From: a virus
Length of the DNA stretch: 64,000 nt
Reading direction: 5' to 3' (one strand)
IMG/VR virus record: IMGVR_UViG_3300023174_000063
The position numbers and the translations under genes were made by a program. A model generated the notes under the pieces. That model had not been told where the DNA came from. It made no database searches and was given only the letters and a program-made list of their open reading frames with translations. How positions within the stretch are numbered: the stretch's first letter is position 1; each line of letters opens with the position of its first letter. Positions 24,034-46,154 of the stretch are shown here, one piece after another.

Positions 24034-25623
24034 ATGACAATTATTTCAAAGCAGCACCAGGTTTCTGAAATTATTCGCTGCGGCAAAGATCCAGCGTATT
24101 TCATGAACAGGTACCTGAAAATTCAGCACCCAACGCGCGGTCTGATTCCGTTTAAAACGTATAAATTTCAGGATGATTGCGTTCAATCATTTAATGATCA
24201 TCGCTTTAATATCATACTCAAGTCTAGACAGCTAGGTCTTTCTACGCTTGTAGCAGCATATGCAATCTGGATGGCTGTTTTCTTTAAAGAAAAAAATATC
24301 CTAGTAATTGCCACAAAACTTTCTGTTGCACAAAACTTTATTAAAAAAATTAAAGTTGGTGTTCGCAATATGCCTAAATGGCTCTTGCTACCAGAAATTA
24401 TTGGAGATAATAAGCAGGCACTAGAATTTAGTAATGGCTCAAGCATCAAGGCCGTGCCTACATCAGATGACGCTGGTCGCTCAGAAGCTCTTTCTCTCCT
24501 GATTATTGATGAGGCGGCGTTCATTAGGAACTTTGATGAAATTTTTACCGGTCTCTATCCGACACTTTCAACCGGCGGTCGCGCGATTATTTTGTCGACG
24601 CCTAACGGTGTCGGTGGGCAGTACCATGAGCTTTGGGTTAATGCTATTTCAAAAAAGAATGAGTTTAATCCAGTCAAGTTGCCATGGGATGTACATCCAG
24701 ACAGGGATGATGCATGGTTTGAAAATGAATGTAAAAATCTAACTAAGAAACAAATTGCGCAAGAGCTTCTTTGTGACTTTGCAGCATCAGGTGATACTGT
24801 TCTTAACATCAATGATATTGAGTGGCTTGGAGCAAATATTAAGCGGCCGCTCGAACGGTGGGGCCCTGAAATGGATGCTTGGGTATGGAAATACTCTCTT
24901 GCGTCGCATCAGTACATTATTTCTGCAGATGTTTCACGTGGTGATGCAAATGACTGCAGTACATTTCATGTAATTGACACTGGCGAGTCTGAAGTCGTCT
25001 GTGAGTTTAAGGGGCGAGCGCCCCCTGATCAATTTGCTTCTATTCTTGCTGAGGCGGGCAAAAGATACAATAACGCACTGATTTGTCCAGAAAACAACAC
25101 ATTTGGTTATGCGGTCATCATGAAGCTCAAAGAGCTTGGCTATAAGAATCTCTACTATAGAAATGAAAAAGACAAGTATAATGCGCTCTACGGTGGCGAA
25201 GTAGACATTTCTAAAATAGGATTTTCGACTCAAGCACAATCTAGAAATCAAATTTTGACAAAGCTCGAGCAAGTCATTAGAAATAGAGAAATTAAGACAT
25301 ATTCATCTAGGCTCTATGAAGAAGCTAAAACATTTGTCTGGCATGGTAATAAAGCGCAGGCGCACAAAGGCTTTAATGATGACTTAATCATGTCTTTAGC
25401 AATTGGCGTCTGGATTTATGAAACGTCTCCAGTAAATAGCAAGTCATCATATGACATTAACAAGGCAATGTTACAGGGCTTTGCCGTCAATAGCACACAA
25501 GATATCCCGAAGAACCCATTGTCAGGTTACAGGAACAATCCATTTGCACCTGTCTTTGTAGAAAATATTCCCAACAAAGGTGATAAAAAATCAGAACTTA
25601 ATGATTTTAAGTGGCTCCTTTGA
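24034..25623 (+). CDS. terL: Terminase large subunit (T4 gp17-like)
   Basis: KSRQLGLST, Walker B LLIIDEAAFI, LSTPNG coupling motif, nuclease ISADVSRG and DDLIMSLAI. Confidence 0.95.
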   Translation: MTIISKQHQVSEIIRCGKDPAYFMNRYLKIQHPTRGLIPFKTYKFQDDCVQSFNDHRFNIILKSRQLGLSTLVAAYAIWMAVFFKEKNILVIATKLSVAQNFIKKIKVGVRNMPKWLLLPEIIGDNKQALEFSNGSSIKAVPTSDDAGRSEALSLLIIDEAAFIRNFDEIFTGLYPTLSTGGRAIILSTPNGVGGQYHELWVNAISKKNEFNPVKLPWDVHPDRDDAWFENECKNLTKKQIAQELLCDFAASGDTVLNINDIEWLGANIKRPLERWGPEMDAWVWKYSLASHQYIISADVSRGDANDCSTFHVIDTGESEVVCEFKGRAPPDQFASILAEAGKRYNNALICPENNTFGYAVIMKLKELGYKNLYYRNEKDKYNALYGGEVDISKIGFSTQAQSRNQILTKLEQVIRNREIKTYSSRLYEEAKTFVWHGNKAQAHKGFNDDLIMSLAIGVWIYETSPVNSKSSYDINKAMLQGFAVNSTQDIPKNPLSGYRNNPFAPVFVENIPNKGDKKSELNDFKWLL

Positions 25624-25691: not shown

Positions 25692-27749
25692 ATGAAAAAA
25701 GAGAGAAGTTTATTTTCACGTCTTACGAAGCTCTTTCGTTCAGGACCTGTCGTCAAGAGGAAGATTAGAAATCCTGAAAGCAAATCTTCATCATTTGCCT
25801 CGACGCTAGAGATCTTTAAGCGATCTCACAGCGACGTCTATAGCAGCACGCTTTCGGCATACGGCTCCTACGATAGAATGTCTCGATACAGCGACTTTGC
25901 CGAAATGGAGGCGACGCCTGAGATTTCTTCTGCGCTAGACATATATGCAGAAGAATGTGCCGCAGCAGACGACAAAGGTCGTGTTTTACACATCTATTCA
26001 GACAACAGAAAAATTAAAGAAATCCTTGAGACGTTGTTTCATGACACGCTAAACATTGAATTCAATCTTTCGATGTGGGTCAGAAACCTCTGCAAGTACG
26101 GTGATTTCTTCCTTTTCAATGATGTACACCCTGAGTATGGCGTGACTAATGCCTACCCAATTCCTATTTCAGAGATGGAAAGAGAAGAGGGTTTTGACAA
26201 GGATGACCCGTCTGCCGTTAGATTTCGTTGGATTTCTCAAGGAAATCAAGTCTTAGAAAACTGGCAAGTCACTCATATGCGCCTTTTAGGCAATGATGCA
26301 TTTTTGCCATACGGTTCATCTGTTCTAGAGGGAGCAAGAAGAATTTGGCGTCAATTGATTCTTATTGAAGACGCCATGCTTGTCTATCGTGTCGTTAGGT
26401 CGCCAGACAGAAGAGTCTTCTATATTGATGTCGGTAATGTCCCCCCAGAAGAGGTTGGAAATTATTTGGAGCAGGCTAAGACGGCACTTAAGCGTAATCA
26501 GATTATTGATAGAAATTCTGGAAGAGTTGACTTGCGCTACAATCCCATGAGCGTCGACGAAGATTACTACTTGCCTGTCAGAGGAAGTGAATCTGGAACA
26601 AAAATTGATACTCTTGCAGGCGGCACAAATGCTGCTGCAATTGAAGATGTTCAATATATCCAGAAAAAGCTTTTTTCTGCGCTCAAAATTCCAAAAGCAT
26701 ATCTTGGATATGATGAAGATATTGGCGCCAAAGCTACATTAGCTCAAGAAGACATTAGATTTTCTAGAACAATTGCGCGTATTCAGAAGACAATTATTGC
26801 TGAATTAAACAAGATTGCAATGATTCATCTTTATATTAATGGTTACGACAGTGAAGATCTTGTTGATTTTGAGTTAAGACTCTCAAATCCCTCGTCTATC
26901 GCACAGCAGCAAAAGCTAGAATTGATTAAAATGAGATTTGAAATAGCAAGCGGTGCACCCGAAGGTCTTGTGAGCAAGACTTACTTGCGCAAAAACATTC
27001 TAGAAATGACTGACGAGCAAATTGAGCAAATTCGCAAGGAGCGCATTAAAGACACAGATGAAGAAAAGGGCGTTGAAGTTGGAAGTCAAGCAGGGCCCGC
27101 AGGCTCTGAGGCTCCAGCTGATGCCGGCGGTGGCGCAACAGACATGTTCGGCGGTGGCGGTGGCGGTGGCGGCGAAGCGGCTCCAGCCGGTGGGGGTGAA
27201 GAAGCCGCCGGCGGAGACCTTTTCTCAGGCGCAGTTAAGCCAGGAGATCTCCTCAAGACCGCTCCTAAAAAACTAAGCATTGCTGCTGAATCACCCGCAG
27301 AACTCTTTGATGATGATGATGAATTAGATGAAGATGTTCTTATTAATGTCGACATTGATGACAAACCAATTAAGCCGACAAATAGAACACAACGTGGAGA
27401 AAAAGGCGGTCATGGGCGAAAGGGCGGCGAAAATAAATTAACAAGTGCAGTTAATGCAAAAGTTAATATTAGCGGCATGCTTAGAAATTCAACAAAGAAC
27501 GACAAAGATGTTTTTGGAATTTCAGGAAGCACATTTGAAGCTTTCGAAAGAGACCCATTTGATCAATTTCTAGAAAAAAGTGAATTTCAGCAGACAAGAA
27601 TGACAAGAGATGCAGAATCTTTGCTTCAGAAGATGAAAAATGGATTACGTTTGCAAAAGAAAGCCATACTTAGAGAAGGTAATGAGTCACATGAGAGACT
27701 TGAGAAGCTTCGTCTAATTGATCTCATAGGTGCCGGAGATGATGAATAA
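25692..27749 (+). CDS. Portal protein (T4 gp20-like) with long low-complexity C-terminal extension
   Basis: EDAMLVYRVVRSPDRRVFYIDVGNVP, EDYYLPVRG, KLFSALKIPKAYL and EDIRFSR. Confidence 0.95.
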   Translation: MKKERSLFSRLTKLFRSGPVVKRKIRNPESKSSSFASTLEIFKRSHSDVYSSTLSAYGSYDRMSRYSDFAEMEATPEISSALDIYAEECAAADDKGRVLHIYSDNRKIKEILETLFHDTLNIEFNLSMWVRNLCKYGDFFLFNDVHPEYGVTNAYPIPISEMEREEGFDKDDPSAVRFRWISQGNQVLENWQVTHMRLLGNDAFLPYGSSVLEGARRIWRQLILIEDAMLVYRVVRSPDRRVFYIDVGNVPPEEVGNYLEQAKTALKRNQIIDRNSGRVDLRYNPMSVDEDYYLPVRGSESGTKIDTLAGGTNAAAIEDVQYIQKKLFSALKIPKAYLGYDEDIGAKATLAQEDIRFSRTIARIQKTIIAELNKIAMIHLYINGYDSEDLVDFELRLSNPSSIAQQQKLELIKMRFEIASGAPEGLVSKTYLRKNILEMTDEQIEQIRKERIKDTDEEKGVEVGSQAGPAGSEAPADAGGGATDMFGGGGGGGGEAAPAGGGEEAAGGDLFSGAVKPGDLLKTAPKKLSIAAESPAELFDDDDELDEDVLINVDIDDKPIKPTNRTQRGEKGGHGRKGGENKLTSAVNAKVNISGMLRNSTKNDKDVFGISGSTFEAFERDPFDQFLEKSEFQQTRMTRDAESLLQKMKNGLRLQKKAILREGNESHERLEKLRLIDLIGAGDDE

Positions 27750-28596
27750 AAAAACAACGCATAACAAGAAGCGCAATGTTGGCATTATTTATGAGCAACT
27801 AATGCGAAAGATTTCAGAGCACATTGTCGATGGTGACAATGAAAGTGCAATTAAAGTTGTTAATATCGTTAAAAAACATTTTAAGCCAGGCACTGAGCTC
27901 TACAAAGAATTTCGTCTATTTAATGCTCTCGTAAAAACACAGGTTTCTTCTAGCGAAATTGCTGCTAAGATTCTTGTCGAAGCAAGAGAAGCTGCAAAAG
28001 ATCACAACAGTGTCAAATTAATGCAAGAAAAATCAAGACTTATCAAGGAAATTAATCACACAATTTCTAGTCGAGATTTCTACACAACAAGAGTTCCAGA
28101 GTACAGAACTTATGCAACAATTCAGACACTGATGAATGATTGGCGCGACACAAGGACTAGCGATATTTCTAGAATCGCGATTTTTGAAGACAAGATTCAC
28201 AGCTGGCTTCTTGAACCCAAGTCTAATTTAAATGTTAGCGAGCTTAAGACTGAAAATGTTGACAACCTCGTCGTAAGCGTAATGAGAGAAAAATTAAATA
28301 AAAAGTATGAGACTATTTTGACACCTAAGCAGATGGTTCTTGTTAAAGAGCATGCGCTGAGAGAGTCAAATGGTGATAATTTTACCAAATATCTTGGCAG
28401 CGTCATTAATGAGTCACTCAAGGGTCTCGCTGATTACAAGAGATCGTGCAAGAGCTCTTTTGTCGAGGCAAAAATTCCAGGAGTTACATCTCTAATTGAG
28501 TCATTAAATCCCGGCGATCACAGCGATGGAAATATTGCCAAGTTTATGACTGTTCTCAAGCTTTGTGACGAAATCACAGGGGGCAAAGATGAATAA
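27742..28596 (+). CDS. Hypothetical head-assembly protein
   Basis: HNKKRNVGIIYEQL; sits between portal and protease. ATGs at 27739/27742 overlap the portal stop; exact start uncertain. Confidence 0.6.
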   Translation: MNKKTTHNKKRNVGIIYEQLMRKISEHIVDGDNESAIKVVNIVKKHFKPGTELYKEFRLFNALVKTQVSSSEIAAKILVEAREAAKDHNSVKLMQEKSRLIKEINHTISSRDFYTTRVPEYRTYATIQTLMNDWRDTRTSDISRIAIFEDKIHSWLLEPKSNLNVSELKTENVDNLVVSVMREKLNKKYETILTPKQMVLVKEHALRESNGDNFTKYLGSVINESLKGLADYKRSCKSSFVEAKIPGVTSLIESLNPGDHSDGNIAKFMTVLKLCDEITGGKDE

Positions 28597-29194
28597 GCAG
28601 CTTTTAACAGAATGGCAAAACTTTGAGTATACAAAGGAGATGATTGCTGAGTCAAGGGAAAAGAACGCAGGCAAGATTATCCTTAAGGGAATATTGCAAA
28701 AGTCTGATACTTTGAATCAAAATGGCCGCATTTATCCTGAGCATATTCTTTCTAGAGAAGTTAGAAATTACCAGAAGTTTATTAATGAGAATCGCGCACT
28801 TGGTGAGTGTGATCACCCAGAAAGTTCTGTTGTCGAGCTTAAGAATGTCTCTCATATTGTAAGATCTGCTTACATGCAGGGCGGTATCTGTTACGGAACA
28901 GTTGAGCTATTAGATACACCGTCAGGCAAGATTCTTCAGAGCCTTGTTGAAAATGGAATTACACTGGGTATTTCATCTAGAGGTGTTGGGTCAACAAAGT
29001 CTTCTGGTGATCACCAAGTTGTGCAAGATGACTTTCAATTAATCTGCTGGGACTTTGTTAGTGAGCCTTCGACACCTGGCGCTTTCATGATGAAGGAAGG
29101 CCGTAGAATTTCCGAAAATGACTTAAAGCGTCACTTTACTAAGTCAGATAGAGTTGATAGAATTTTCAATGAAATTCTAACCTGGAAGGAATAA
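28589..29194 (+). CDS. Prohead protease (T4 gp21-like)
   Basis: NQNGRIYP, ALGECDHP, VSH, LGISSRGVGS and DFVSEPSTPGA. Confidence 0.95.
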   Translation: MNKQLLTEWQNFEYTKEMIAESREKNAGKIILKGILQKSDTLNQNGRIYPEHILSREVRNYQKFINENRALGECDHPESSVVELKNVSHIVRSAYMQGGICYGTVELLDTPSGKILQSLVENGITLGISSRGVGSTKSSGDHQVVQDDFQLICWDFVSEPSTPGAFMMKEGRRISENDLKRHFTKSDRVDRIFNEILTWKE

Positions 29195-29572: not shown

Positions 29573-30025
29573 ATGACAAAAAGCGAACTAAAAAATATTG
29601 TCAAAGAGTGCCTTGTTGAAATTCTCAGTGAGGGAATTGGTTCTTCGAGCAGAATTGTTGAGGCAAAAAAAGAGATGCCTGTCACTGCAGCCAAAACTCA
29701 GGATAGAAGTATTCAAGAAATGCTAAAGATGAGGCAGACAATTGCCAATAAGACTCAGTTTGGTCAAAAACCAGCTAAGCAATCATCGGCGCCAACTGTC
29801 AATAATCTGGTTAAAAGCGTCACAAATGATGCAGTAATGGCTGCATTGTTTGCAGATACAGCTGAAACAACACTTCAAGAACAAATTGAAAATGATAGGC
29901 GAGTTCTCAAGGGCCATTCATTAGACAATGAAAATCATGATGATTCTCCCGTAGGTGGTTCAGGTTTTAGCGAAGAAATGGCAAAGCACTGGTCTGCACT
30001 TGCTTTTAATCAATCAAAAAAGTAA
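29573..30025 (+). CDS. Hypothetical head-region protein with leader helix
   Basis: MTKSELKNIVKECLVEILSEG N-terminus; C-terminal WSALAF resembles the scaffold end (WAVLAG). Confidence 0.6.
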   Translation: MTKSELKNIVKECLVEILSEGIGSSSRIVEAKKEMPVTAAKTQDRSIQEMLKMRQTIANKTQFGQKPAKQSSAPTVNNLVKSVTNDAVMAALFADTAETTLQEQIENDRRVLKGHSLDNENHDDSPVGGSGFSEEMAKHWSALAFNQSKK

Positions 30026-30095
30026 AAATAGTTTCCATTTATTGAGCGACAGCGATAAGTAATTTTAAGCACTTCGTTTTGGAGACATGTAAATT

Positions 30096-30374
30096 ATGCA
30101 CAAACTTTTGACACCACACGTACTTCGCAAAATTATTCTTGAGGAAAAAGCTCGACTTATGTCGGAAGGTGACCCGTTCATGGACGGCATCGAAGATGTT
30201 GAAAAAGTCAAGGCTGAAGAAGTTGATCCCGAAGATTTGGCCGACACTCTTGCAAAGGAGATCGATCACATCAAGGCTCTCAAGATTAAGGAGTCAAAGC
30301 TCCACAAGGAAGTTCAAGCAATTAGAGAAGCTCAGAATATACTGCGCAAGAGAGTCCTTAAGAGACTTTCATAA
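30096..30374 (+). CDS. Small charged head-region protein
   Basis: LTPHVLRKIILEE leader; C/G-ending codons like the capsid gene. Confidence 0.6.
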   Translation: MHKLLTPHVLRKIILEEKARLMSEGDPFMDGIEDVEKVKAEEVDPEDLADTLAKEIDHIKALKIKESKLHKEVQAIREAQNILRKRVLKRLS

Positions 30375-30394
30375 TACCCTAAAAGGAGACTCAT

Positions 30395-30871
30395 ATGCCT
30401 ACGCATAAACAATATACGACAGAAGCAGTTGTGACAGAGCGAGGTCCGGGTCGTTCTGCATCTAATTCACTTAGGGCTGCATTTGCTAATTCTCCCCTCT
30501 ACAAGGGCGAGTGGTCTGACGCAAAGGTTCATGAATATTGGATCGAAAACGTTCAGGAGAGAGCTATCAATGACGGTGGACATACGTTCGGATTGTTTGT
30601 TCAAAATTACAAAGGCGCTCCCGATGTTGAAGATGTTAGAACCGGCGGCGGTGGACTTCCAGCCGGTCCTTATGTGCCTACAACTGCATCTCCCGGCGTA
30701 GAAGGCTCGATGAATCCTTACGATTTGCCCGAAGTTGATCCGACGCCCAGGACCAATATCTATGGCACAGGTCCAGGTATCTCTCTGTCATCCAAAGATG
30801 CATCAGCTAATATCGCAAAAGGCACACTTGGTTCTTATTTAATGGGAAAGAGTGGCGGAATTCCCGAATAA
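30395..30871 (+). CDS. Gly/Pro-rich hypothetical virion protein
   Basis: Strong AAGGAG RBS; located in the head cluster. Confidence 0.6.
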   Translation: MPTHKQYTTEAVVTERGPGRSASNSLRAAFANSPLYKGEWSDAKVHEYWIENVQERAINDGGHTFGLFVQNYKGAPDVEDVRTGGGGLPAGPYVPTTASPGVEGSMNPYDLPEVDPTPRTNIYGTGPGISLSSKDASANIAKGTLGSYLMGKSGGIPE

Positions 30872-30876
30872 TCTTA

Positions 30877-31524
30877 ATGAAACTTCTTGCATCTAAAACT
30901 AGGCAGAAACTTTTTGAAAAGCTCTCGTCTTATGGAAATACAACGGGCGCTTCTCCTAGTTTTAAAGATGCAAGAAGTGATTTAGGTTACGGTAGAATTG
31001 ACAATAAATGGCATGATCAAAGAGGAAGAAACAATTATTTTCCTTACATAGATCCTGTTAACGAAGATGAAGCCGAAGATGATGAATCCCTAGAAATAGA
31101 AGATCCACATCTTCTGTCTTTAATGTCTAAAAAATTAAATACTGATATTGCTGTTAATGATCCTCTCGGCGGATATAAGGCAGATCCTTTTTATTTTGCC
31201 GGAAGCAATACTAGTCTTTCAATTGCAGACTGTTTCTATAGAACAGATTATGTACTTAACGAGATTGCTGCAATGAATTCATCTCTTGTTCCAATGCCAG
31301 GAATATGGCGCAAAGCTGTAAAATCTGGTGGGCAAGGAGCAGCTGTCTATTTGACTGTTGCGCACCCAGTTAGAACAGGAATGCTCAGAGGATGGTCTAG
31401 CGCGCCTTTCGAAAATGATAATATTTTTGACAATGTCGAAGATTTCGATGACGTCGATGAAGGCGATGAAGACGAAGATTTTATTTCTATTTGGGATGTC
31501 ATTAAAAAAAATGCAGTTTTTTAA
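30877..31524 (+). CDS. Hypothetical protein with acidic C-terminus
   Basis: 215-aa ORF in the operon. Confidence 0.55.
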   Translation: MKLLASKTRQKLFEKLSSYGNTTGASPSFKDARSDLGYGRIDNKWHDQRGRNNYFPYIDPVNEDEAEDDESLEIEDPHLLSLMSKKLNTDIAVNDPLGGYKADPFYFAGSNTSLSIADCFYRTDYVLNEIAAMNSSLVPMPGIWRKAVKSGGQGAAVYLTVAHPVRTGMLRGWSSAPFENDNIFDNVEDFDDVDEGDEDEDFISIWDVIKKNAVF

Positions 31525-31610
31525 TTTTTTTTAATTGTCTCAAATAAATTGTTTTTCTTGTGATAATTAAGCTTATAGAATTTGTCATAAGACATTGATG
31601 AGTGGGGATT

Positions 31611-33284
31611 ATGAGCCAAAACCTTTATATTGAATCAATTGCAGATGCTCGACAGCTTCGTGAGATTGCCGAGGCTAATGCACGTAATAAGATCATTGAT
31701 GCAATTACGCCGCAGATACGCAAGCTTATTGAAAAGAAGCTTCTTAGCGATGAGGATGAGATTGAAAGCTCAGAAGAGTCTGAGCTTATCGATATAGACT
31801 CAGACGCCGGCGAAGAGGCTGGTGAATTAGCCGAGCCAAGTGATGACATGCCTAATCCACGTACGACCAATATTGAAGACTTTGAGGACGAGGATGAGAT
31901 GGGCGAGCTCGAGCATGACGAGGACGACGTTTCAGTCACACCCACGTCATCTGGTGCACAAATCAACGTCAAAGATGATGGCAATATTAGTTTGACACTT
32001 GACGATGTTGAAATTATCGTAAATCAAAAGTCAAAAACTTTTGAAGGACTAGAAGATCGTGCGACTTCCCGCAGTAGTTTAAAGTCTGCCACACAGCGCG
32101 CGAAGATCTTCGAGATGAAGTACAAACTATTCAATATTATGCTTGAAAAAGAGATCAAGAACGGTCTCGGAATCAATGAAAAGAAGAAATTTGTACAAAT
32201 ATTAGAAACTTTGCAGAAGCAGGCAGCAAAAATCAAGAGCGATGCTATACTTACAGAAGGTAGCTCAAAAATTATTAACAAAATGAATAATCTGATTAAG
32301 GAGATGAAAATGTCAAGGAAGCGCGTGAACAATAATGTCTTTGATTTTCTTTTTGAGATGGCAGAAGAAGACGGCATGCCAGTAGAAGGCATGCACGAAG
32401 AAGACGAGATGCCCGTCGAAGAAGCCCTCGAGGAAGCCGATGAAAAGGATGAGGGCGAGGGTGAGCCTGATGTCGACAGCGCTATCAAGGCGCTCGAGGA
32501 TGCGCTTGCTGCTCTCAAGGGAGAGGGCGGCGATGAAGGCGAGGATGACATGGGCGACCTAGGTGACCTCGGCGGCGAAGGCGAGGATGATGCCGAAGGC
32601 GCCGACGAAGGCGAGGACGAAGAGAAGAATGAGAGTCAGGTGTATGAGATCGATGAGTCCGTTCTTCGCCGTGAGCTTCGCCGCATGAAGCGTCTTTCAG
32701 AGGTCACAAGTGGCGTTTCCGATCCCAAGTTTACAGCCCGCGCCTTTGGCGATGGCGACGTCGAGGATGAGATGTTCATCGACGTTGATGAGGAGACACT
32801 CCTCAATGTTTTGGCCGATGAGCTCGGCCGTGTTAAGTTCAAGGGCGGCCGTATGCACGAGTCTGCCCACAGAAGAGCAGTTTCGCCCCGACGCAACAAT
32901 GAGACTGCAGCTCTACGCTCCAAACTGAGAGAGTATGAGACAATGACAGAGTCGATGAAGTCACAGCTTGTTGAGATGAATCTCTTCAATGCGAAGCTTC
33001 TCTACGCCAACAAGTTAATGCAGAACAAGAATCTGACACAGAAGCAGCAGCGAGCAATTGTCGAGGCGCTAGATAATGCCAAGACGCTCCGCGAGGCAAA
33101 GCTTCTTTACAAGAGCCTGACTGAGTCCCTCAACAAGGGTGGCGCACGTTCGCTACAAGAGGGAAGCACACGGACGCTCGGATCGGCTTCCAGATCAACC
33201 CAGTCGGCGCAGGTTCGCCCGACATCCAATGGAGTTGAGGTAGATCGATGGGCAGTTCTTGCAGGCATCGCAAGCAAGAAATAA
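31611..33284 (+). CDS. Prohead scaffolding/core protein
   Basis: Highly acidic, low-complexity protein directly upstream of the capsid gene; C-terminal EMNLFNAKLLYANKL...EAKLLYKSL...RWAVLAGI. Confidence 0.75.
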   Translation: MSQNLYIESIADARQLREIAEANARNKIIDAITPQIRKLIEKKLLSDEDEIESSEESELIDIDSDAGEEAGELAEPSDDMPNPRTTNIEDFEDEDEMGELEHDEDDVSVTPTSSGAQINVKDDGNISLTLDDVEIIVNQKSKTFEGLEDRATSRSSLKSATQRAKIFEMKYKLFNIMLEKEIKNGLGINEKKKFVQILETLQKQAAKIKSDAILTEGSSKIINKMNNLIKEMKMSRKRVNNNVFDFLFEMAEEDGMPVEGMHEEDEMPVEEALEEADEKDEGEGEPDVDSAIKALEDALAALKGEGGDEGEDDMGDLGDLGGEGEDDAEGADEGEDEEKNESQVYEIDESVLRRELRRMKRLSEVTSGVSDPKFTARAFGDGDVEDEMFIDVDEETLLNVLADELGRVKFKGGRMHESAHRRAVSPRRNNETAALRSKLREYETMTESMKSQLVEMNLFNAKLLYANKLMQNKNLTQKQQRAIVEALDNAKTLREAKLLYKSLTESLNKGGARSLQEGSTRTLGSASRSTQSAQVRPTSNGVEVDRWAVLAGIASKK

Positions 33285-33325
33285 AAATCGCTAAACCAAA
33301 ACTACAAGGATTAAGGAGATATATT

Positions 33326-35230
33326 ATGAGTTCATTTTCTTTAGAGCAGCTGTCAGAGGGCATCCGCGAGAGGCACCTCGGCACACAGAACAAGCGACTC
33401 ACAGAGAAGTGGTCGCGCACAGGCCTTCTTCGTGGTCTCGACGGTGTCAACCGTGAGAACATGGCTCGCCTTCTCGAGAACCAGGCAGCACAGGTTCTTC
33501 GTGAGGCTTCAACCCTTTCAACTGGTGGGGGCGCACTCAGCGCTAGCGGAGATATCCGTGGCTTTACCAACGTTGCATTCCCAATCGTTCGCCGCGTCTT
33601 TGGTGGCCTCGTTGCCAACGAGCTCGTGTCGATCCAGCCAATGAGCCTTCCTTCGGGTCTGCTCTTCTACCTCGATTACACCTACGGAACAAACGTTGGT
33701 GGAACAGACCAGGGTAGTACATTTGTGTCAGGATCGTCGATCTACAATAACCCAGTCGGCAAAGGCGTCCAGAGCGGGTCGCTAGCAACAGGAGGTCAAT
33801 ATGACCTCGTTGGAACAACATATTCCAGAGTTCATAAAGCAACACCCGTCGATAACGTAGCTCCGACCAACAAACTATTTGCTTTCTCAGGCACCTCTAC
33901 GATTGTAAAGCCAGACGCAGATACAGCAATTGCTTCGACAGCACACGCTACAGGCACAGATGGTTTGCTGTTGCAGTTTGATCCCCAGATTACAAATCTC
34001 ATCGAGGCAGGTGGTCAATTTGTTTTCTTGGCAGTTCCATTCAATGCAGACAACTTCCCAAATGTAGATTCGACAGCTGTCAAAGGCATTTCTCTTGTTA
34101 AAGATAACGGAGCGGCCGGTTTTGATGCAGTCACAAACCTGGAGACAATTCCTGCAACGATTCAGGCAGGATCAACATTAAATGTTCGTCGTCTAAATCA
34201 GCTTGTAATATTCGATGGTACCTCTGTGACACCTGCACCTCTTGCGACAACAGCAACAGGCAACGCACACGTTCTAATGGTTTTGAAAGGTACCGGCATA
34301 CACAGCGGCGATCAGGGTAAATTTACAGTAACATACCCAGTATCAGATAAATTTGAGGCTGATGCTTCCGGTGGTGACACTCTCGTTATTCCCTCATTTG
34401 AATCATCTGCAGCGGCTCGCCAGCTTGACGCAGAGTCGCCAACAATCCCAGAGATCGACATTAAGATCGAGTCGCTGGCAGTTACGGCTCAGTCACGCAA
34501 GCTCAAGGCACGTTGGTCGCCTGAGCTCGCACAGGACCTGAATGCCTACCACAGCCTTGACGCTGAGGTTGAGCTCACACAGATCCTGTCAGAGCAGATT
34601 GCTCTAGAACTTGACAGAGAGGTTCTCAATGATCTTCTCACGCAGGCAAACGGCGCAAACTACTACTGGTCGCGCGCTCCCGGTCGCTTTGTCAACAAGG
34701 AGACCGGCCGCGAGGTCGAGCGTAACGGTTCACTCAACCCAGGACCCGCCTTCACAGGCACAGTCCGTGAGTGGTACGAGACTCTCGTCGAGACAATTAT
34801 CGACGTTGCCAACACAATTCACCGCAAGACACTGCGTGGTTCGGCGAACTTCATCGTCGTTGGACCCGACGTTGCCACAATCCTCGAGAGCTCGGTTTTC
34901 TACAAGCCCAGCTACACAATCGACGGTGAGGGCCAGGTCTCGTCACCCATGACTCTCGGCACCGAGAAGATTGGTACAGTGTCGAACCGTTTCACAGTCT
35001 ACAAGGACCCCTACTTCCCCCGCAACAAGATCCTTGTTGGTTACAAGGGCGGTAGCTACCTCGAGACAGGCTACGTCTACGCTCCTTACGTTCCTCTCAT
35101 CGTCACACCCACAATCTTCGCGCCAGACGATTTCACACCCCGTAAGGGCGTGATGACACGTTACGGCAAGAAGATGGTCCGCAGCGACTTCTACGGCACT
35201 GTGACACTGATGGACATGAACATTATCTAA
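33326..35230 (+). CDS. Major capsid protein (T4 gp23-like)
   Basis: FPIVRRVF, VSIQPMSLPSGLLFYLD, SRKLKARWSPELAQDLNAYHSLDAEVEL, GYVYAPYVPL and PRKGVMTRY. TAAGGAG RBS places the start at 33326. Confidence 0.97.
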   Translation: MSSFSLEQLSEGIRERHLGTQNKRLTEKWSRTGLLRGLDGVNRENMARLLENQAAQVLREASTLSTGGGALSASGDIRGFTNVAFPIVRRVFGGLVANELVSIQPMSLPSGLLFYLDYTYGTNVGGTDQGSTFVSGSSIYNNPVGKGVQSGSLATGGQYDLVGTTYSRVHKATPVDNVAPTNKLFAFSGTSTIVKPDADTAIASTAHATGTDGLLLQFDPQITNLIEAGGQFVFLAVPFNADNFPNVDSTAVKGISLVKDNGAAGFDAVTNLETIPATIQAGSTLNVRRLNQLVIFDGTSVTPAPLATTATGNAHVLMVLKGTGIHSGDQGKFTVTYPVSDKFEADASGGDTLVIPSFESSAAARQLDAESPTIPEIDIKIESLAVTAQSRKLKARWSPELAQDLNAYHSLDAEVELTQILSEQIALELDREVLNDLLTQANGANYYWSRAPGRFVNKETGREVERNGSLNPGPAFTGTVREWYETLVETIIDVANTIHRKTLRGSANFIVVGPDVATILESSVFYKPSYTIDGEGQVSSPMTLGTEKIGTVSNRFTVYKDPYFPRNKILVGYKGGSYLETGYVYAPYVPLIVTPTIFAPDDFTPRKGVMTRYGKKMVRSDFYGTVTLMDMNII

Positions 35231-35256
35231 TATTAGATAGTTTCTTGTTCTTAAGG

Positions 35257-35285
35257 GGCAGACACTTTGTGTCTGCCTTTTTTTT
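35257..35285 (+). terminator. Rho-independent terminator after the capsid gene
   Basis: GGCAGACAC-ttt-GTGTCTGCC followed by T8. Confidence 0.9.
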
Positions 35286-35302
35286 AATTCTAGAAAGAAC
35301 AA

Positions 35303-35629
35303 ATGACTCGAAGAAATAGAAATCAACCAAAATTATCTAAAGATCGCTGTGAGATCTGTAACTACGATAGATCTGCAGCAATCAATTTTCATCACATTAT
35401 TCCTAGATGTGATCCTCGATGTACTAATGACAATTATAATCTAGCTGTCGTTTGTCACTCCTGCCATGACTTAATTCACGCCGGTGAAATTACCATTATC
35501 GGTGTTTATTACACGACTGCAGGTAGAAAGCTAATGTGGTTTAAGGATGGTGAAGAGCCTCCATTAGAAAAAGAATTTTGGAGAGTCAAAAATAATCCTC
35601 TAGTTTTAAGAAAAAAATTATCAATTTAG
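35303..35629 (+). CDS. HNH endonuclease
   Basis: CEIC...HHIIP...NLAVVCHSCHDLIH. Confidence 0.85.
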   Translation: MTRRNRNQPKLSKDRCEICNYDRSAAINFHHIIPRCDPRCTNDNYNLAVVCHSCHDLIHAGEITIIGVYYTTAGRKLMWFKDGEEPPLEKEFWRVKNNPLVLRKKLSI

Positions 35630-35672
35630 ACTTCTACGTTATACTTAAAAACAACGACAATGATTTAGTTTA

Positions 35673-35702
35673 GGGGGCCCTGCTTTGGGCCCCCATTTTT
35701 TT
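35673..35702 (+). terminator. Rho-independent terminator
   Basis: GGGGGCCC-tgcttt-GGGCCCCC followed by A and T7. Confidence 0.9.
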
Positions 35703-35775
35703 TAAACTTACAATTCGTGTGTGATATTTAATGATTGAATAGTGACGATATTGCTCATTAAGATAAAGGATTTAA

Positions 35776-36684
35776 ATGTCATTTCTTAGCGAATCAAAGG
35801 TTAGAAAAATCATTAGAGGCATTATTCTTAATGAGATTGCCAGATCAGATGGAAGTCTTGATGGTTTTTTAAATGTGCTTAATTCATACAGCAATCATAC
35901 GTGGATATTCTTTGATACGGAGACGACAGGCTTAAGACCGTGGACTCGACAGCCTGGCAAAGAAGGTGGGCCACAACTAACACAGATCGCAGCTATAGCT
36001 GTCAAGCCTGACTGGGGTGCAGACAGCGATGGCAGCAATATACTTGGAACTTTTAATAAAAAAATCAGCTTTACTGATTATACTAGGCGGCTAATGACAA
36101 ATCCCAGTTCTAGAGAGCGTCAAAAGTGGGACGCCAAAGATCAAAAGCTAGGAAAGCGCGCGCTTGGAGATCCTAGAAAACTCTTGAGTATGACATCATA
36201 CGGCGTGAGTCGAGGTAAATTTGATCCAGAGCAGGATGTCATTAATGAATTTTTTAATTTTATTTCAGAATATCCAAACCCACTGCTGGTTGCTCAAAAT
36301 GCAAGTTTTGATATGAGATTTATTAATGTTAGAAGTGGTGGAAAAATGCCTAAACTTCCTGTGCTAGATACACTGACGCTAATCCAGCAGTATCTTTTTC
36401 CAGTTTTGACAGCTGCTGCCTCTTCAAGCAACCCTGATCCTGAAGCTTTACGCCTAATTGAGCTTCTTAAGAATCGCGGAAGACTTTCAGCATCCTTGGG
36501 TAATCTTTCAAAAGCATTTGATATTGAAGCATCAGGCTGGCATGATGCCCTAGAAGATGTTAAAATGTTGATGTCTGTCTACGTTAGAACGATAGAAATA
36601 TTAGAAAATCAAGTGTCAAGCGGCCTAAATGCGCAGGCTCAAATTGGAAAAGCATTGGCAGCTGCGCACAAACGTAAAAATTAA
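35776..36684 (+). CDS. DEDDh (DnaQ-like) 3'-5' exonuclease
   Basis: ExoI FFDTETTG, ExoII AQNASFD, ExoIII HDALED. Confidence 0.88.
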   Translation: MSFLSESKVRKIIRGIILNEIARSDGSLDGFLNVLNSYSNHTWIFFDTETTGLRPWTRQPGKEGGPQLTQIAAIAVKPDWGADSDGSNILGTFNKKISFTDYTRRLMTNPSSRERQKWDAKDQKLGKRALGDPRKLLSMTSYGVSRGKFDPEQDVINEFFNFISEYPNPLLVAQNASFDMRFINVRSGGKMPKLPVLDTLTLIQQYLFPVLTAAASSSNPDPEALRLIELLKNRGRLSASLGNLSKAFDIEASGWHDALEDVKMLMSVYVRTIEILENQVSSGLNAQAQIGKALAAAHKRKN

Positions 36685-36753
36685 CACTCTAAGTATCTAG
36701 ATAATCATACTTAGTTTTACTTAGCATTTTAAGAACAAAAACAGGAGGAAGAT

Positions 36754-37308
36754 ATGAATAATTTGGCACGTAGGCGAGGCAGTAAGAGATTGACAGAGGC
36801 AGCTGTTCAAAAAAAAATTAGAAGAATAATAAGAGAAGAATATCTTAGGTCTACTCCTGAGACTCGCCCAGGCCAATTGATGTCAGAGCACCGCGCTGAG
36901 CTTATTGCTGAACAGCTAGTTGAAGCCGGTTTATGGGCTGCAATTAAAGCTGGAGCATCTTCACTTAAGGGTGCTACAAAATCTTTGGGTGGTGCTGCAC
37001 TCGAGCCCCTAAAGGGTGTAGGACAAGTCGCAGGACAGGTTGCAAAATTGGGTCTAAAAGCCGCTGAAGACATCGGTCAAGCAATTCAAAAAATAGAAGA
37101 TGATGCTGTCAAAGCAGCTGCTCAAGAAGCACAAGCTTCGCTGAAGAAGAGCATTGCAAATTCGGCAAAAAATGCTATTACCAAAGCAGTTCCTGCTCTA
37201 GTAAAGGCTGGCATGGAAACACAAGAAGCCAAAGCATTCGTAGCAGAACTAGTTGCCGCAGAAATGGCTGCACTTACTGCAGGTGCAGACACAACAGCAG
37301 CTAGCTAA
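36754..37308 (+). CDS. Ala-rich helical protein, possible internal head protein
   Basis: AGGAGG RBS, ATACTTA at 36707, LTE...IRRIIREE leader. Confidence 0.6.
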   Translation: MNNLARRRGSKRLTEAAVQKKIRRIIREEYLRSTPETRPGQLMSEHRAELIAEQLVEAGLWAAIKAGASSLKGATKSLGGAALEPLKGVGQVAGQVAKLGLKAAEDIGQAIQKIEDDAVKAAAQEAQASLKKSIANSAKNAITKAVPALVKAGMETQEAKAFVAELVAAEMAALTAGADTTAAS

Positions 37309-38366: not shown

Positions 38367-38405
38367 TTTTAGTTTTGCTATTTGAATAATTTACAAGGAG
38401 CTAAG

Positions 38406-38753
38406 ATGTCATCGCTTAAATCAAAAAAGAATAGAGTAAATCCGCTGGCTAGATTAAATACTAATCCTGAGGTTGTGTTAGAGAGCGCTGAAGATTCTGC
38501 AGTGCTTCATGACCATGACGAGTCTGATCTGCCTAATGAGACGCTCGATGTTGTTGAACATTTAGATCCAGAGCCTGCTGTTTTAGCTCCTCCTGTTGTT
38601 CCTCTTCCCAAAAAAGAGGAATTTTCACCAAAGACCTATAAGGTCGGTGATTCCTATGTAAAGGGAGGCATTAGCGGTGAGGTCATTTTTGTTTCAAAAA
38701 ATATGATCAAAATTGTCGTGAAGGGTGAAGGCGTCAAATTAATTTATATTTAA
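38406..38753 (+). CDS. Hypothetical protein
   Basis: AAGGAG RBS before ATG 38406; short beta-rich C-terminal domain. Confidence 0.55.
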   Translation: MSSLKSKKNRVNPLARLNTNPEVVLESAEDSAVLHDHDESDLPNETLDVVEHLDPEPAVLAPPVVPLPKKEEFSPKTYKVGDSYVKGGISGEVIFVSKNMIKIVVKGEGVKLIYI

Positions 38754-46000: not shown

Positions 46001-46154
46001 GCAGTTTAGAGTAATTTGTGACACTACGAATAATTCGCAGTCTGATGTTGATGAGAATAGGATGAACGGAAAGATCATAATCGTTCCAACTAGAGCAATT
46101 GAGTACATCTCGATCGATTTCGTAATAACAAATAGCGGCGTTATCTTCGAATAA
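43023..46154 (+). CDS. Tail sheath protein 1
   Basis: FRSPGFFEQEID, KGPAFVP, WFAPAGFNRG, RINPI, FGQKTLQ, LDRVNVRRLL and PTRAIEYISIDF. Confidence 0.95.
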   Translation: MAEQTFRSPGFFEQEIDLSARSATASGTPGGIIGTAEKGPAFVPVTVGNLTDFENRFGFLSIDRFGPYAVREFLKSKNALTYVRVLGAGTNETAAERFQTQVAGVSKNAGFKVVGLDSEVPAGHVQFIIAKHNVNTYESAGFPIFTDNLSYDLTDNTVNLVRGVLFTTTGSQFDIMHHNETVAEFLGSPHAFGTLDANSNFRLILSSAAGTAFSNDEGSAGIKVFTASLDPSSMSYIGRVLNTNPDRFQEEQHLLYLDLPIETELAKVENIVAGLSTFGPVGIVLGTESTTDSGYFTDSTFKELFGRYDSRFTTPKTPSFISQPYGTTEYDLFSFETISDGAWGNSRYKISIANIRKSNDPLNPYGTFDVQLRNFNDSDLSPEILEYYPECDLNPSSENYIARKIGDKKVFYNFDATDDSERRLIVTGKYENISPRIRILVSDNVEMRKIPNDALPFGFRGIPVIKTNNQLTDHGDLIADRNGRQLGTEGNRVVGAYGTGDGEDLLATIETGAIVPPLPFRFKCTRGAVNTSPSYTGHVGKNERADSRFYWGVKFEKLPSTGSTDNAILNANISSEINPLVAAYSKFQGIDKIDTLVTGSARDYFNDNKFTLARVALRNGMMSGHITDVTGTARDHMLEAAYIRHANPRSTDYTITENIGGIDVDRITLATLVHSTSTVFNRFQEFSKFTTLFYGGFDGLNILDKDIRLMSDRASSADAGGKAGVSIEGGLGLSGSDDGSLSGIGTKNNIVSSYRAAVDIITDPMSSNINILAIPGMRDSFITDYAAEKVKDFGLAIYLMDIPNYDVDGNRLFDDSSSRVDPRETSEVFESRVIDNNYVATYFPDVYMIEPANLSSVKVPPSVSAMGALAYNDRISYPWFAPAGFNRGALDTVTNVDVRLNTSDRDVLYDARINPIASFPAGGFVIFGQKTLQMAKSALDRVNVRRLLIEVKRIVASQAGRLLFEQNNAATRNRFVSQVTPLLALVQAQAGIEQFRVICDTTNNSQSDVDENRMNGKIIIVPTRAIEYISIDFVITNSGVIFE

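What the first reader, a model, noticed from the sequence alone, without database searches (positions are those of the whole stretch)
29573..37308. Shared leader helix plus (L/I/M)-x-E site on unrelated head-region proteins: candidate capsid-loading signal
Seen: otherwise unrelated ORFs carry a similar amphipathic segment. 29573 MTKSELKNIVKECLVEILSE; 30096 LTPHVLRKIILEEKARLMSE; 35776 LSESKVRKIIRGIILNE; 36754 LTEAAVQKKIRRIIREE; the scaffold has ITPQIRKLIEKKLL and IDESVLRRELRRMKRLSE; the protease tail has ISENDLKRHF. Known: T4 gp21 cleaves after (I/L)-x-E, and T4 internal proteins use an N-terminal capsid-targeting sequence. Inference: this helix mimics the scaffold, recruits cargo into the prohead core and is then removed by the 28589 protease. 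That would be a modular cargo-loading tag different in sequence from the T4 one.
Basis: partly seen in the sequence, partly recalled or inferred. Interest (0 to 1): 0.8.

Follow-up and report, generated by a model that had tools for sequence, protein, structure and literature searches.

The report
Capsid-loading tag on phage proteins
Four otherwise unrelated proteins beside the head genes of an uncultured T4-like phage begin with the same short helix, which ends in the motif its head protease should cut; relatives put this tag on dozens of proteins, so it is probably a "load into the capsid, then clip off" label like phage T4's, but packaging has not been observed.

Summary
The window is the structural region of an uncultured, distant T4-like phage. 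It encodes a gp20-type portal, an S77/gp21-type prohead protease and a gp23-type capsid protein.

- **Observation.** Only the four N-terminal ones (ORFs 29573, 30096, 35776, 36754) form a motif above chance. The scaffold and protease-tail segments do not.
- **Spread of the tag.** The tag is clade-wide, roughly M-K-I-T-x-x-Q-L-R-x-I-I-K-E, and conservation stops right after the hydrophobic-x-Glu. Four large related contigs (255-318 kb) carry 8-24 significant copies each, almost all at start codons, on unrelated proteins with no known domain. T4 has none.
- **Modularity.** Homologues of the 35776 DEDDh exonuclease keep the enzyme but swap the tag by lineage. The tag matches that of neighbouring unrelated genes. 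One lineage uses a T4-CTS-like tag.
- **Cut site.** The capsid protein's predicted maturation site (L-R-E|A) aligns with T4's known site.
- **Reading.** Most likely (about 0.6) this is a lineage-specific version of the T4 capsid-targeting sequence, removed by the S77 protease. Packaging and cleavage are inferred, not shown. "Mimics the scaffold" is not supported.
- **Earlier notes.** This scan has already reported similar tag expansions in other uncultured T4-like jumbo phages.

The parts
28589..29194 (+). Prohead maturation protease, T4 gp21 type (the ORF opens at GTG 28565; the likely start is ATG 28589).
   Evidence: Pfam Peptidase_S77 at 1.2e-22. PHROG 207, head maturation protease, at 1.6e-49.
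29108..29116 (+). I-S-E just after the protease domain: a candidate C-terminal self-processing site. It is not an instance of the tag.
   Evidence: T4 gp21 and the immuto protease have I-T-E / L-N-E at the equivalent place. It scores only 3.3 bits with the tag model. Self-processing of such proteases is known (PMC5694885).
29573..30025 (+). Conserved small head-module protein (family 0, 150 aa). The tag-like N-terminal helix occupies 29573-29632 and ends L-S-E|G at residue 20.
   Evidence: 46 orthologues lie between protease and scaffold in relatives. The N-terminal 21 residues are the most conserved part, with E12, E16 and G21 invariant. It is the top hit (28.5 bits) of the independently trained matrix. 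Likely homologues in immuto and Mel-JY01 were judged by eye.
30096..30374 (+). Conserved small head-module protein (family 1, 92 aa): tag-like helix at 30108-30167, an acidic middle and a basic C-terminal helix.
   Evidence: 28 orthologues in the same position, aligned in A2. Scores 15.0 bits. No detectable homology to T4 gp67.
31611..33284 (+). Acidic scaffold-like protein in the gp22 position. It has two conserved internal helices (31704-31745 and 32649-32702) that only loosely resemble the tag.
   Evidence: Lies directly upstream of the capsid gene. 62 orthologues of over 350 aa conserve both helices, but these score about 0 bits with the tag HMM.
33326..35230 (+). Major capsid protein, gp23 type. 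The predicted maturation cut is after L-R-E (E codon 33503-33505).
   Evidence: Pfam Gp23 at 1.4e-78. In alignment A3 this Glu shares a column with the T4 gp23 L-T-E|A site and is at least 90% conserved.
35776..36684 (+). DEDDh (RNase T / DnaQ-like) 3'-5' exonuclease with a 20-residue tag (35776-35835, ending L-N-E). Candidate packaged enzyme.
   Evidence: Pfam RNase_T at 1.2e-9. Scores 10.6 bits at residue 4. In the AlphaFold2 model, residues 1-20 are a low-confidence helix (pLDDT about 52) and the fold is confident from about residue 28. Homologues swap tags by lineage.
36754..37308 (+). Ala/Lys-rich ORFan (184 aa). The tag core is at 36802-36840, preceded by 16 residues ending L-T-E. Further sites are I-R-E (residue 28) and M-S-E (residue 45).
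   Evidence: Scores 14.9 bits. No homologue in 80 related loci or in G002. In the 84%-identical relative L043 this exact slot holds a different tagged ORFan.
36707..36713 (+). ATACTTA, a candidate late-promoter element 47 nt upstream of ORF 36754. The variant ATATTTA lies at 35724, upstream of the exonuclease.
   Evidence: 11 copies on the + strand against 1 on the - strand. 8 of the 11 are intergenic, including upstream of the sheath gene (43023) and ORF 52103.

Best explanation
The four window proteins carry a lineage-specific version of the phage T4 capsid-targeting sequence.

The tag is an N-terminal amphipathic, basic helix of about 14-20 residues. The clade consensus is M-K-(I/L)-(T/S)-x-x-x-L-(R/K)-x-(I/V)-(I/V)-(K/R)-E, sometimes extended to about 27 residues ending G-L-(I/L)-x-E.

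Proposed mechanism (inferred):
1. The helix binds the assembling prohead core. It uses the contact made by the N-terminal helices of the two conserved small head-module proteins, ORFs 29573 and 30096.
2. The capsid shell closes around the core.
3. The S77 protease (28589-29194) cuts after the hydrophobic-x-Glu that ends the tag. It is predicted to cut the capsid protein the same way, after L-R-E.
4. The mature cargo stays in the head and is presumably ejected with the DNA. In this window the cargo is a DEDDh exonuclease and an Ala/Lys-rich ORFan.

Shown: the motif, its N-terminal position, its modularity and its end in hydrophobic-x-Glu; the presence of the protease; the conserved capsid site. 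Inferred: binding to the core, cleavage, packaging and ejection.
For: 1. The machinery is T4-like: portal, S77 protease and gp23-type capsid protein.
2. The motif is real and N-terminal.
- In 80 related loci, 97 of 101 matrix hits lie in the first 20 residues, with none in shuffles.
- The hits fall into 22 unrelated families.
3. Conservation is high for residues 1-15 and drops to about 0 straight after I-x-E. I/V/L at position 12 occurs in 28/28 and E14 in 21/28.
4. Whole related contigs hold 24, 24, 8 and 13 copies at E<=1e-3. An uncultured 484-kb phage has 23 at E<=0.1. A 595-kb phage and T4 have none, and three cultured relatives have 1 weak hit each.
5. In the 273-kb contig G002, 32 of 36 tagged proteins have the motif exactly at a start codon.
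6. Tagged proteins are a distinct class: 0/20 have a Pfam domain, against 9/19 random untagged proteins of similar size.
7. The exonuclease family shows the tag is modular.
- The enzyme is conserved while the tag changes by lineage. Some homologues are untagged, and one equals a 14-residue tag plus a complete untagged-type protein.
- The exonuclease's tag is shared by unrelated ORFs of its own locus in 3.6% of ORFs, against 0.58% for loci with other tags.
- Loci L114/L115 use a tag like the experimentally validated T4 CTS (PMC8442874).
8. The capsid maturation Glu aligns with T4's known site.
9. S77 is present in 5/5 near-complete contigs with a tagged exonuclease and in 0/2 near-complete (0/5 in all) contigs with an untagged one.
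10. Between the window and L043, the slot after the exonuclease exchanges one tagged ORFan for another. This resembles the polymorphic T4 internal-protein loci (PMC3012670).
11. AlphaFold2 models the exonuclease tag as a low-confidence helix outside the confident fold.
Against: - There is no direct evidence of packaging or cleavage, and no cultured member or proteome.
- In relatives the tag marks about 10% of ORFs and is scattered across the genome rather than confined to the head module. That would be an unusually large cargo set.
- The tag has no sequence match to the T4 CTS.
- ORFs 29573 and 30096 have no detectable homology to T4 gp68 or gp67.
- A phage ClpP protease co-occurs with the tag as consistently as S77 does. 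It lies directly upstream of a tagged gene in G002 and G003, so co-occurrence does not single out S77.
- Third codon positions in the tag are more alike than codon usage predicts (0.61 against 0.42). Some of the conservation is therefore at DNA level or reflects recent duplication.
- In ORFs 30096 and 36754 the motif is not at residue 1.
- The S77 association is confounded by phylogeny.
Confidence: 0.6

Rival explanations
1. The tag is an address or recognition signal for something other than the prohead. Examples are a substrate or adaptor signal for the phage-encoded ClpP protease, or a propeptide that keeps proteins inactive until clipped, without capsid loading.
For: - ClpP is present in all five tag-rich genomes and in 4/5 near-complete genomes with a tagged exonuclease.
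- In G002 and G003 the ClpP gene is immediately followed by a tagged gene.
- Tagged genes are scattered over the genome and make up about 10% of ORFs.
Against: - The tag ends in the S77/gp21 motif, which is also predicted at the capsid maturation site.
- Its closest likeness is to the N-termini of two head-module proteins.
- A T4-CTS-like tag occupies the same position on exonuclease homologues, and T4 has a CTS.
- One near-complete genome in the exonuclease set has S77 but no ClpP (G017). Its exonuclease N-terminus is not clearly tagged, so this point is weak.
Confidence: 0.15
2. The helix is a permanent functional module that has been shuffled onto many proteins. It might serve oligomerisation, nucleic-acid binding or membrane binding through a basic amphipathic helix. 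It would not be cleaved and would not be a targeting signal.
For: - It is basic and amphipathic. Tag pI is 9.7-11.7 on three of the four window proteins.
- In 30096 and 36754 it is not at the extreme N-terminus.
- Internal second copies exist in some G002 proteins.
Against: - Its position at a start codon is nearly exclusive: 97/101 and 32/36.
- Conservation ends abruptly at hydrophobic-x-Glu.
- The same enzyme tolerates entirely different tags or none.
- AlphaFold2 gives low confidence for the tag and no integration into the fold.
Confidence: 0.12
3. The conservation is mainly at nucleotide level. It would be an A-rich 5' coding leader that favours translation initiation, or a shared 45-nt handle that lets gene cassettes recombine, with the peptide being incidental.
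For: - There is a strong excess of A-ending codons (AAA, AGA, ACA, GAA).
- Third-position identity is 0.61 against 0.42 expected.
- Cassette replacement occurs at a tagged slot.
Against: - 39% of third positions still differ where the amino acid is the same.
- The hydrophobic positions and the terminal Glu are the best conserved.
- Different lineages use different tags that keep the amphipathic pattern and the hydrophobic-x-Glu end.
- The window/L043 replacement spans the whole gene rather than starting after the tag.
Confidence: 0.06
4. Chance resemblance between ordinary N-terminal helices.
For: Helices with an S/T cap and Lys/Arg/Glu-rich faces are common. Hydrophobic-x-Glu occurs by chance about once per 60 residues.
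Against: Shuffles give essentially no hits, and an independently trained model recovers all four proteins.
Confidence: 0.01

Closest known systems
Phage T4 capsid-targeting sequence (CTS) of internal proteins IPI, IPII, IPIII and Alt, removed by the gp21 protease (Mullaney and Black 1996; reviewed in PMC3012670, PMC5694885, PMC8442874)
   Same: - A short N-terminal peptide shared by otherwise unrelated, fast-evolving proteins.
- It ends in (L/I)-x-E.
- The genome encodes an S77/gp21 protease and a gp23-type capsid with a conserved maturation site.
- Cargo genes sit in replaceable cassettes.
   Different: - The sequence is unrelated to the T4 ten-residue CTS. The tag HMM finds nothing in T4.
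- The tag is longer (14-27 residues) and strongly basic.
- It is present on two conserved head-module proteins.
- In relatives it tags roughly 20-35 proteins per genome, against a handful in T4.
- Function has not been tested.
T4 prohead core proteins gp67, gp68 and scaffold gp22, which gp21 cuts into fragments
   Same: ORFs 29573 and 30096 are small proteins encoded between protease and scaffold, with several hydrophobic-x-Glu sites. The scaffold is acidic and sits in the gp22 position.
   Different: There is no detectable homology to gp67 or gp68 (hhalign probability below 1%). Gene order differs: in T4, genes 67 and 68 precede gene 21.
Long N-terminal propeptides of head and ejection proteins in giant phages phiKZ, 201phi2-1 and SPN3US (PMC5694885, PMC7411985)
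   Same: Many internal head proteins are processed by a gp21-related protease after x-x-Glu. The propeptides are thought to direct incorporation into the prohead.
   Different: Those propeptides are mostly 80-160 residues long and are not a shared portable sequence. Their cleavage motif is (A/S/G)-x-E. Here the tag is one short, near-identical sequence.
Encapsulin cargo-loading peptides (analogy only; from general knowledge)
   Same: A short portable peptide is enough to load diverse cargo into an HK97-fold shell.
   Different: Those peptides are usually C-terminal, are not removed by a protease, bind the shell directly, and belong to a non-viral compartment.

Membership tests
T4-type CTS / gp21 cargo-loading system | The genome encodes an S77 (gp21-type) prohead protease within a T4-type head module. 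| tested here: met
   Peptidase_S77 at 1.2e-22, Portal_T4 at 5e-80 and Gp23 at 1.4e-78. PHROG 207.
T4-type CTS / gp21 cargo-loading system | A short N-terminal peptide is shared by otherwise unrelated proteins. | tested here: met
   Four window proteins. 22 unrelated families in relatives. 32 start-codon-anchored copies in one 273-kb contig.
T4-type CTS / gp21 cargo-loading system | The peptide ends in the protease motif (L/I)-x-E, and the same motif marks the capsid maturation site. | tested here: met
   I/V/L at position 12 in 28/28 and E14 in 21/28, with conservation ending there. All four window tags contain such sites. The capsid L-R-E aligns with T4 L-T-E|A. Actual cleavage was not observed.
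T4-type CTS / gp21 cargo-loading system | Sequence similarity to the T4 CTS. | tested here: not met
   The tag HMM has 0 hits in T4 at E<=1. A T4-like tag does occur on homologues of the exonuclease and on their neighbours in loci L114/L115, but not in this window.
T4-type CTS / gp21 cargo-loading system | Tagged proteins are found in virions with the tag removed. | not testable with these tools
   No cultured relative exists: the best cultured capsid match is 43% identical. The tag and the exonuclease are found only in uncultured records.
T4-type CTS / gp21 cargo-loading system | The tag is sufficient to load a foreign protein into the head. | not testable with these tools
   This needs an experiment. 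The natural swap of tags on one exonuclease family is indirect support only.
T4 prohead core proteins gp67 / gp68 | Detectable homology to gp67 or gp68. | tested here: not met
   hhalign of A2 against gp67 gives probability 0.45%. A5 against gp68 gives 0.17%.
DEDDh (RNase T / DnaQ-like) exonuclease, for ORF 35776 | Exo motifs and fold. | tested here: met
   Pfam RNase_T at 1.2e-9. Invariant D-x-E, N-A-x-F-D and H-x-x-x-x-D columns in 28 homologues. Confident AlphaFold2 model with mean pLDDT 87.

The most novel reading that the evidence does not exclude
In this clade of uncultured T4-like jumbo phages, a portable 14-27-residue address tag marks up to about a tenth of the proteome for loading into the prohead and delivery into the host. 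The tagged set comprises dozens of fast-evolving proteins of unknown function plus a broadly conserved DEDDh exonuclease. Tags are lineage-specific and exchangeable. If so, the injected protein arsenal of uncultured phages could be read directly from sequence.
Probability: 0.4. Interest if true: 0.75.

Novelty: new variant of a known kind. Interest (0 to 1): 0.55.

Why it matters
If the tag works as proposed, it gives a sequence-only way to list the proteins that uncultured T4-like jumbo phages carry in their heads and probably inject. By analogy with T4 IPI*, such proteins are prime candidates for anti-defence functions.

It would show that the T4 CTS principle is ancient and widely used, and that it has been scaled up from a few proteins to dozens.

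It would identify a conserved packaged exonuclease whose role at the start of infection is unknown.

It would add new short tags for loading foreign proteins into phage capsids, an established use of the T4 CTS.

Open-access literature searches for the tag strings returned nothing relevant. This scan's own earlier notes report similar tags in other uncultured phages.

Tried and rejected
- **Whole genome.** None is held for this window, so genome-wide counts come from related contigs.
- **The look-up of encoding contigs.** Contexts of untagged close exonuclease homologues (P0024, P0053, P0054) could not be fetched. The search for related loci was used instead.
- **T4 late promoter.** TATAAATA is not enriched (2 found, 3.1 expected).
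- **ATACTTA upstream of tagged genes in G002.** A simple count shows no enrichment (1/33 against 18/309). Tagged genes lie in arrays, and several arrays or genes do have it 26-60 nt upstream. The result is inconclusive.
- **Scaffold mimicry.** Scaffold helices are conserved but score about 0 bits with the tag model.
- **Protease tail as a tag.** Rejected at 3.3 bits. It is better read as a self-processing site.
- **Homology to T4 core proteins.** Family 1 against gp67 and family 0 against gp68 were both rejected.
- **Pfam/PHROG annotation of tagged proteins.** Nothing was found.
- **tblastn of a tag against cultured phages.** Only one uncultured 484-kb record matched.
- **Slot after the capsid gene.** It holds tagged ORFs in only 7 of 51 related loci, so it is not a universal cargo slot.
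- **S77 against ClpP co-occurrence.** Both are near-universal in these genomes, so this does not discriminate.

Full report
**What the window is.** The 64-kb window is almost entirely + strand structural genes of a phage.
- Pfam and PHROG identify a T4-type large terminase (24034-25623) and a gp20-type portal (25692-27749).
- They also identify an S77/gp21-type prohead protease (28565/28589-29194) and a gp23-type major capsid protein (33326-35230).
- The best cultured capsid matches are only 43-45% identical: Flavobacterium phage immuto and Microcystis phage Mel-JY01. An uncultured 484-kb phage reaches 48%.
- IMG/VR holds a large clade of uncultured relatives with 61-81% capsid identity, on contigs up to 318 kb.
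- No whole genome is held for the window.

**Checking the observation.** All seven quoted segments are at the stated coordinates.
- A strict pattern derived from the four N-terminal segments hits only those four proteins, all within the first 13 residues. Shuffles give a mean of 0.036. That test is post hoc.
- For an independent test, a weight matrix was trained only on unrelated singleton proteins from other contigs. The window, its close relative L043 and the two conserved families were excluded.
- This matrix finds ORFs 29573, 30096, 36754 and 35776 at their N-termini with 28.5, 15.0, 14.9 and 10.6 bits.
- Shuffled proteomes give 0.023 such proteins on average, and never more than one in 300 trials.
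- The scaffold segment scores 5.1 bits and the protease tail 3.3. Across 62 scaffold orthologues the two helices are well conserved but score about 0 bits with the tag HMM.
- So four of the seven segments form a real motif. The other three are real sequences whose likeness to the tag is not above chance.

**What the motif is.** In the 80 related loci (1,253 proteins with the window's own; 343,284 residues), the matrix gives 101 hits. Of these, 97 lie in the first 20 residues. Shuffles give none.
- After removing the tag, the carriers fall into 22 families.
- Family 0 contains the orthologues of ORF 29573, with 45 members. Family 1 contains the orthologues of ORF 30096, with 35 members.
- About 20 singletons begin exactly M-K-(I/L)-(T/S)-x-x-x-L-(R/K)-x-(I/V)-(I/V)-(K/R)-E.
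- An HMM of 24 tags (A1) was run over five whole related contigs. It found 24, 24, 8, 13 and 1 copies at E<=1e-3 (32, 35, 20, 18 and 2 at E<=1). The copies are often in tandem arrays scattered over the genomes.
- The uncultured 484-kb phage has 23 copies at E<=0.1. A 595-kb uncultured phage has none, three cultured relatives have one weak hit each, and T4 has none.
- The 273-kb contig G002 was fetched completely. There, 36 of 342 ORFs match, and in 32 the match starts at a start codon.
- Information content is 1.2-4.2 bits per position for residues 1-15 and then falls to about zero. Position 12 is I/V/L in 28/28 and position 14 is Glu in 21/28.
- A subset continues to about residue 27 and ends G-L-(I/L)-x-E. 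ORF 36754 resembles this long form.

**Peptide or DNA?** Where the amino acid is the same, third codon positions agree 61% of the time, against 42% expected from codon usage. The excess is driven by A-ending codons. Part of the conservation is therefore at DNA level or reflects recent duplication. The best-conserved positions are nevertheless the hydrophobic ones and the Glu, and 39% of synonymous positions differ.

**Who carries it.**
- None of 20 tagged proteins has a Pfam domain. Among random untagged G002 proteins of similar size, 9 of 19 do: gp32, ThyX, 5'-3' exonuclease, ClpP and others.
- In the window, ORFs 29573 and 30096 belong to a conserved block present in all relatives. The order is portal, 27730, protease, 29196, 29573, 30096, 30395, 30877, scaffold, capsid.
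- In family 0 the N-terminal 21 residues are the most conserved part of the protein, ending in a near-invariant E20 and invariant G21.
- By eye, immuto and Mel-JY01 have a similar small protein with a similar N-terminus.
- ORFs 35776 and 36754 lie after the capsid gene, an HNH gene and a terminator.
- The window and L043 are 84% identical in DNA up to 36620 and again from 37427. Between these points, ORF 36754 is replaced by a different tagged ORFan.
- This slot holds tagged ORFs in only 7 of 51 related loci. Two of those loci have five and seven in a row.

**The exonuclease gives the clearest evidence of modularity.** ORF 35776 is a DEDDh exonuclease with 156 metagenomic homologues.
- Their catalytic domain is conserved, but the first 10-20 residues fall into distinct types.
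- One type is the M-K-I-T tag. Another is M-N-L-L-R-E-Y-I-R-x-x-L-x-E. Another is M-K-L-L-x-E-N-W-R-x-Y-L-x-E, and there are several more.
- Nearly all tag types end in hydrophobic-x-Glu about 25 residues before the first Exo motif.
- Some homologues have no tag. One (P0029) equals a 14-residue tag, two linker residues and a complete untagged-type protein (P0024).
- In 72 IMG/VR loci, the exonuclease's own tag recurs on unrelated ORFs of the same locus in 40 of 1,104 ORFs. The rate is 30 of 5,190 for loci whose exonuclease has another tag type. Several loci show five to seven neighbours with the same tag.
- In loci L114/L115 the exonuclease and its neighbours start with M-x-x-F-K-(Q/E)-(Y/F)-(I/L)-x-E. 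This is close to the experimentally validated T4 CTS, M-K-T-Y-Q-E-F-I-A-E (PMC8442874).
- AlphaFold2, run on the 28-sequence alignment, gives mean pLDDT 87. Residues 1-20 form a low-confidence helix (about 52), and the fold is confident from about residue 28.

**Link to the protease.**
- T4 gp21 cuts after (L/I)-x-E. It removes 10-20-residue CTS peptides from the internal proteins and Alt, and the delta piece from gp23 (PMC5694885, PMC3012670).
- In an alignment of capsid N-termini, the T4 L-T-E|A site shares a column with L-R-E|A of the window and with (I/L/V)-x-E of relatives. That Glu is at least 90% conserved.
- The protease C-terminus has I-S-E where T4 gp21 and immuto have I-T-E / L-N-E. 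This fits the known self-processing of such proteases.
- S77 was found in 5 of 5 near-complete contigs with a tagged exonuclease, and in 13 of 24 contigs overall (the rest are fragments). It was found in none of 5 contigs with a distant, untagged exonuclease, two of which are complete. This is in the predicted direction but is confounded by phylogeny.
- A phage ClpP also occurs in all five tag-rich genomes and in four of five near-complete genomes of the exonuclease set. In G002 and G003 it sits directly upstream of a tagged gene. Co-occurrence alone therefore cannot single out S77.

**Expression.** T4's late promoter consensus is not enriched. ATACTTA is strongly strand-biased, with 11 copies on + and 1 on -. 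It lies upstream of the sheath gene, ORF 52103 and other late genes, and 47 nt upstream of ORF 36754. The exonuclease has ATATTTA at the same distance. In G002 the motif precedes several tagged genes or arrays, but a simple count shows no enrichment.

**Conclusion.** The best reading (about 0.6) is a lineage-specific, greatly expanded variant of the T4 capsid-targeting sequence. It is an N-terminal helix that docks proteins to the prohead core. It probably uses the contact made by the conserved small core proteins of families 0 and 1, whose N-termini it most resembles. The S77 protease then removes it at the hydrophobic-x-Glu that ends the tag.
- Rivals are another address or a ClpP-related signal (0.15), a permanent functional helix (0.12) and a mainly nucleotide-level feature (0.06).
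- It is not a sequence member of the T4 CTS but appears to work like it, hence "new variant of a known kind".
- Open-access literature searches for these tag strings found nothing relevant. Earlier notes of this scan describe comparable tag expansions in other uncultured T4-like jumbo phages. Those are unchecked AI notes and were not used as evidence.

Noticed in passing
window 35303-35629: An HNH endonuclease gene lies between the capsid gene and the exonuclease. Among 80 related loci it is present only in L043, which suggests a mobile insertion, comparable to segD between T4 genes 23 and 24.
   Followed up: partly
window 13811, 27666, 35641, 36707, 37888, 38817, 42969, 52057, 53782 and others: ATACTTA occurs 11 times on the + strand and once on the - strand, mostly 13-135 nt upstream of structural genes. 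It is a candidate late-promoter element. The T4 consensus TATAAATA is not enriched.
   Followed up: partly
window 35673-35703: A strong GC hairpin followed by a T-run lies after the HNH gene, and an ATACTTA sits only about 30 nt upstream of it. This looks like a terminator. Earlier notes suggest a possible short transcript.
   Followed up: no
window 33248-33325: The longest capsid ORF starts 78 nt upstream and overlaps the scaffold gene's end. Alignment with relatives places the true start at ATG 33326.
   Followed up: yes
window 32001-36000: GC content rises to 0.46-0.50 over the scaffold and capsid genes, against about 0.40 elsewhere. This probably reflects the codon usage of very highly expressed genes.
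   Followed up: no
window 43023-46154 and 46209-50615: Two large tandem paralogues (1,043 and 1,468 aa) have near-identical N-termini and a shared C-terminal helix motif. They are apparently two sheath-like genes.
   Followed up: no
G002 (L090:9063-9680) and G003:45923-46417: A phage-encoded ClpP protease gene is immediately followed by a tagged gene or array in two relatives. ClpP is present in all five tag-rich genomes examined.
   Followed up: partly
L114:2210-6693 and L115:89-3517: In short contigs, several neighbouring proteins, including an exonuclease homologue, start with a peptide very like the T4 CTS, ending (I/L)-x-E|A.
   Followed up: partly
G002 172158-172835 and 177983-178279 (L090): Two proteins carry a second, internal copy of the tag in addition to an N-terminal one. 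These may be fused cargo or polyproteins cut at each tag.
   Followed up: no
window 27022-27364 (portal C-terminal third): The portal has a long Gly/Ala/acidic low-complexity C-terminal extension beyond the Portal_T4 domain, which ends at about residue 451 of 685.
   Followed up: no
window 38382-38753 versus L043:14726-15043: A second replaceable slot between conserved genes holds unrelated, untagged small ORFs in the two close relatives.
   Followed up: no
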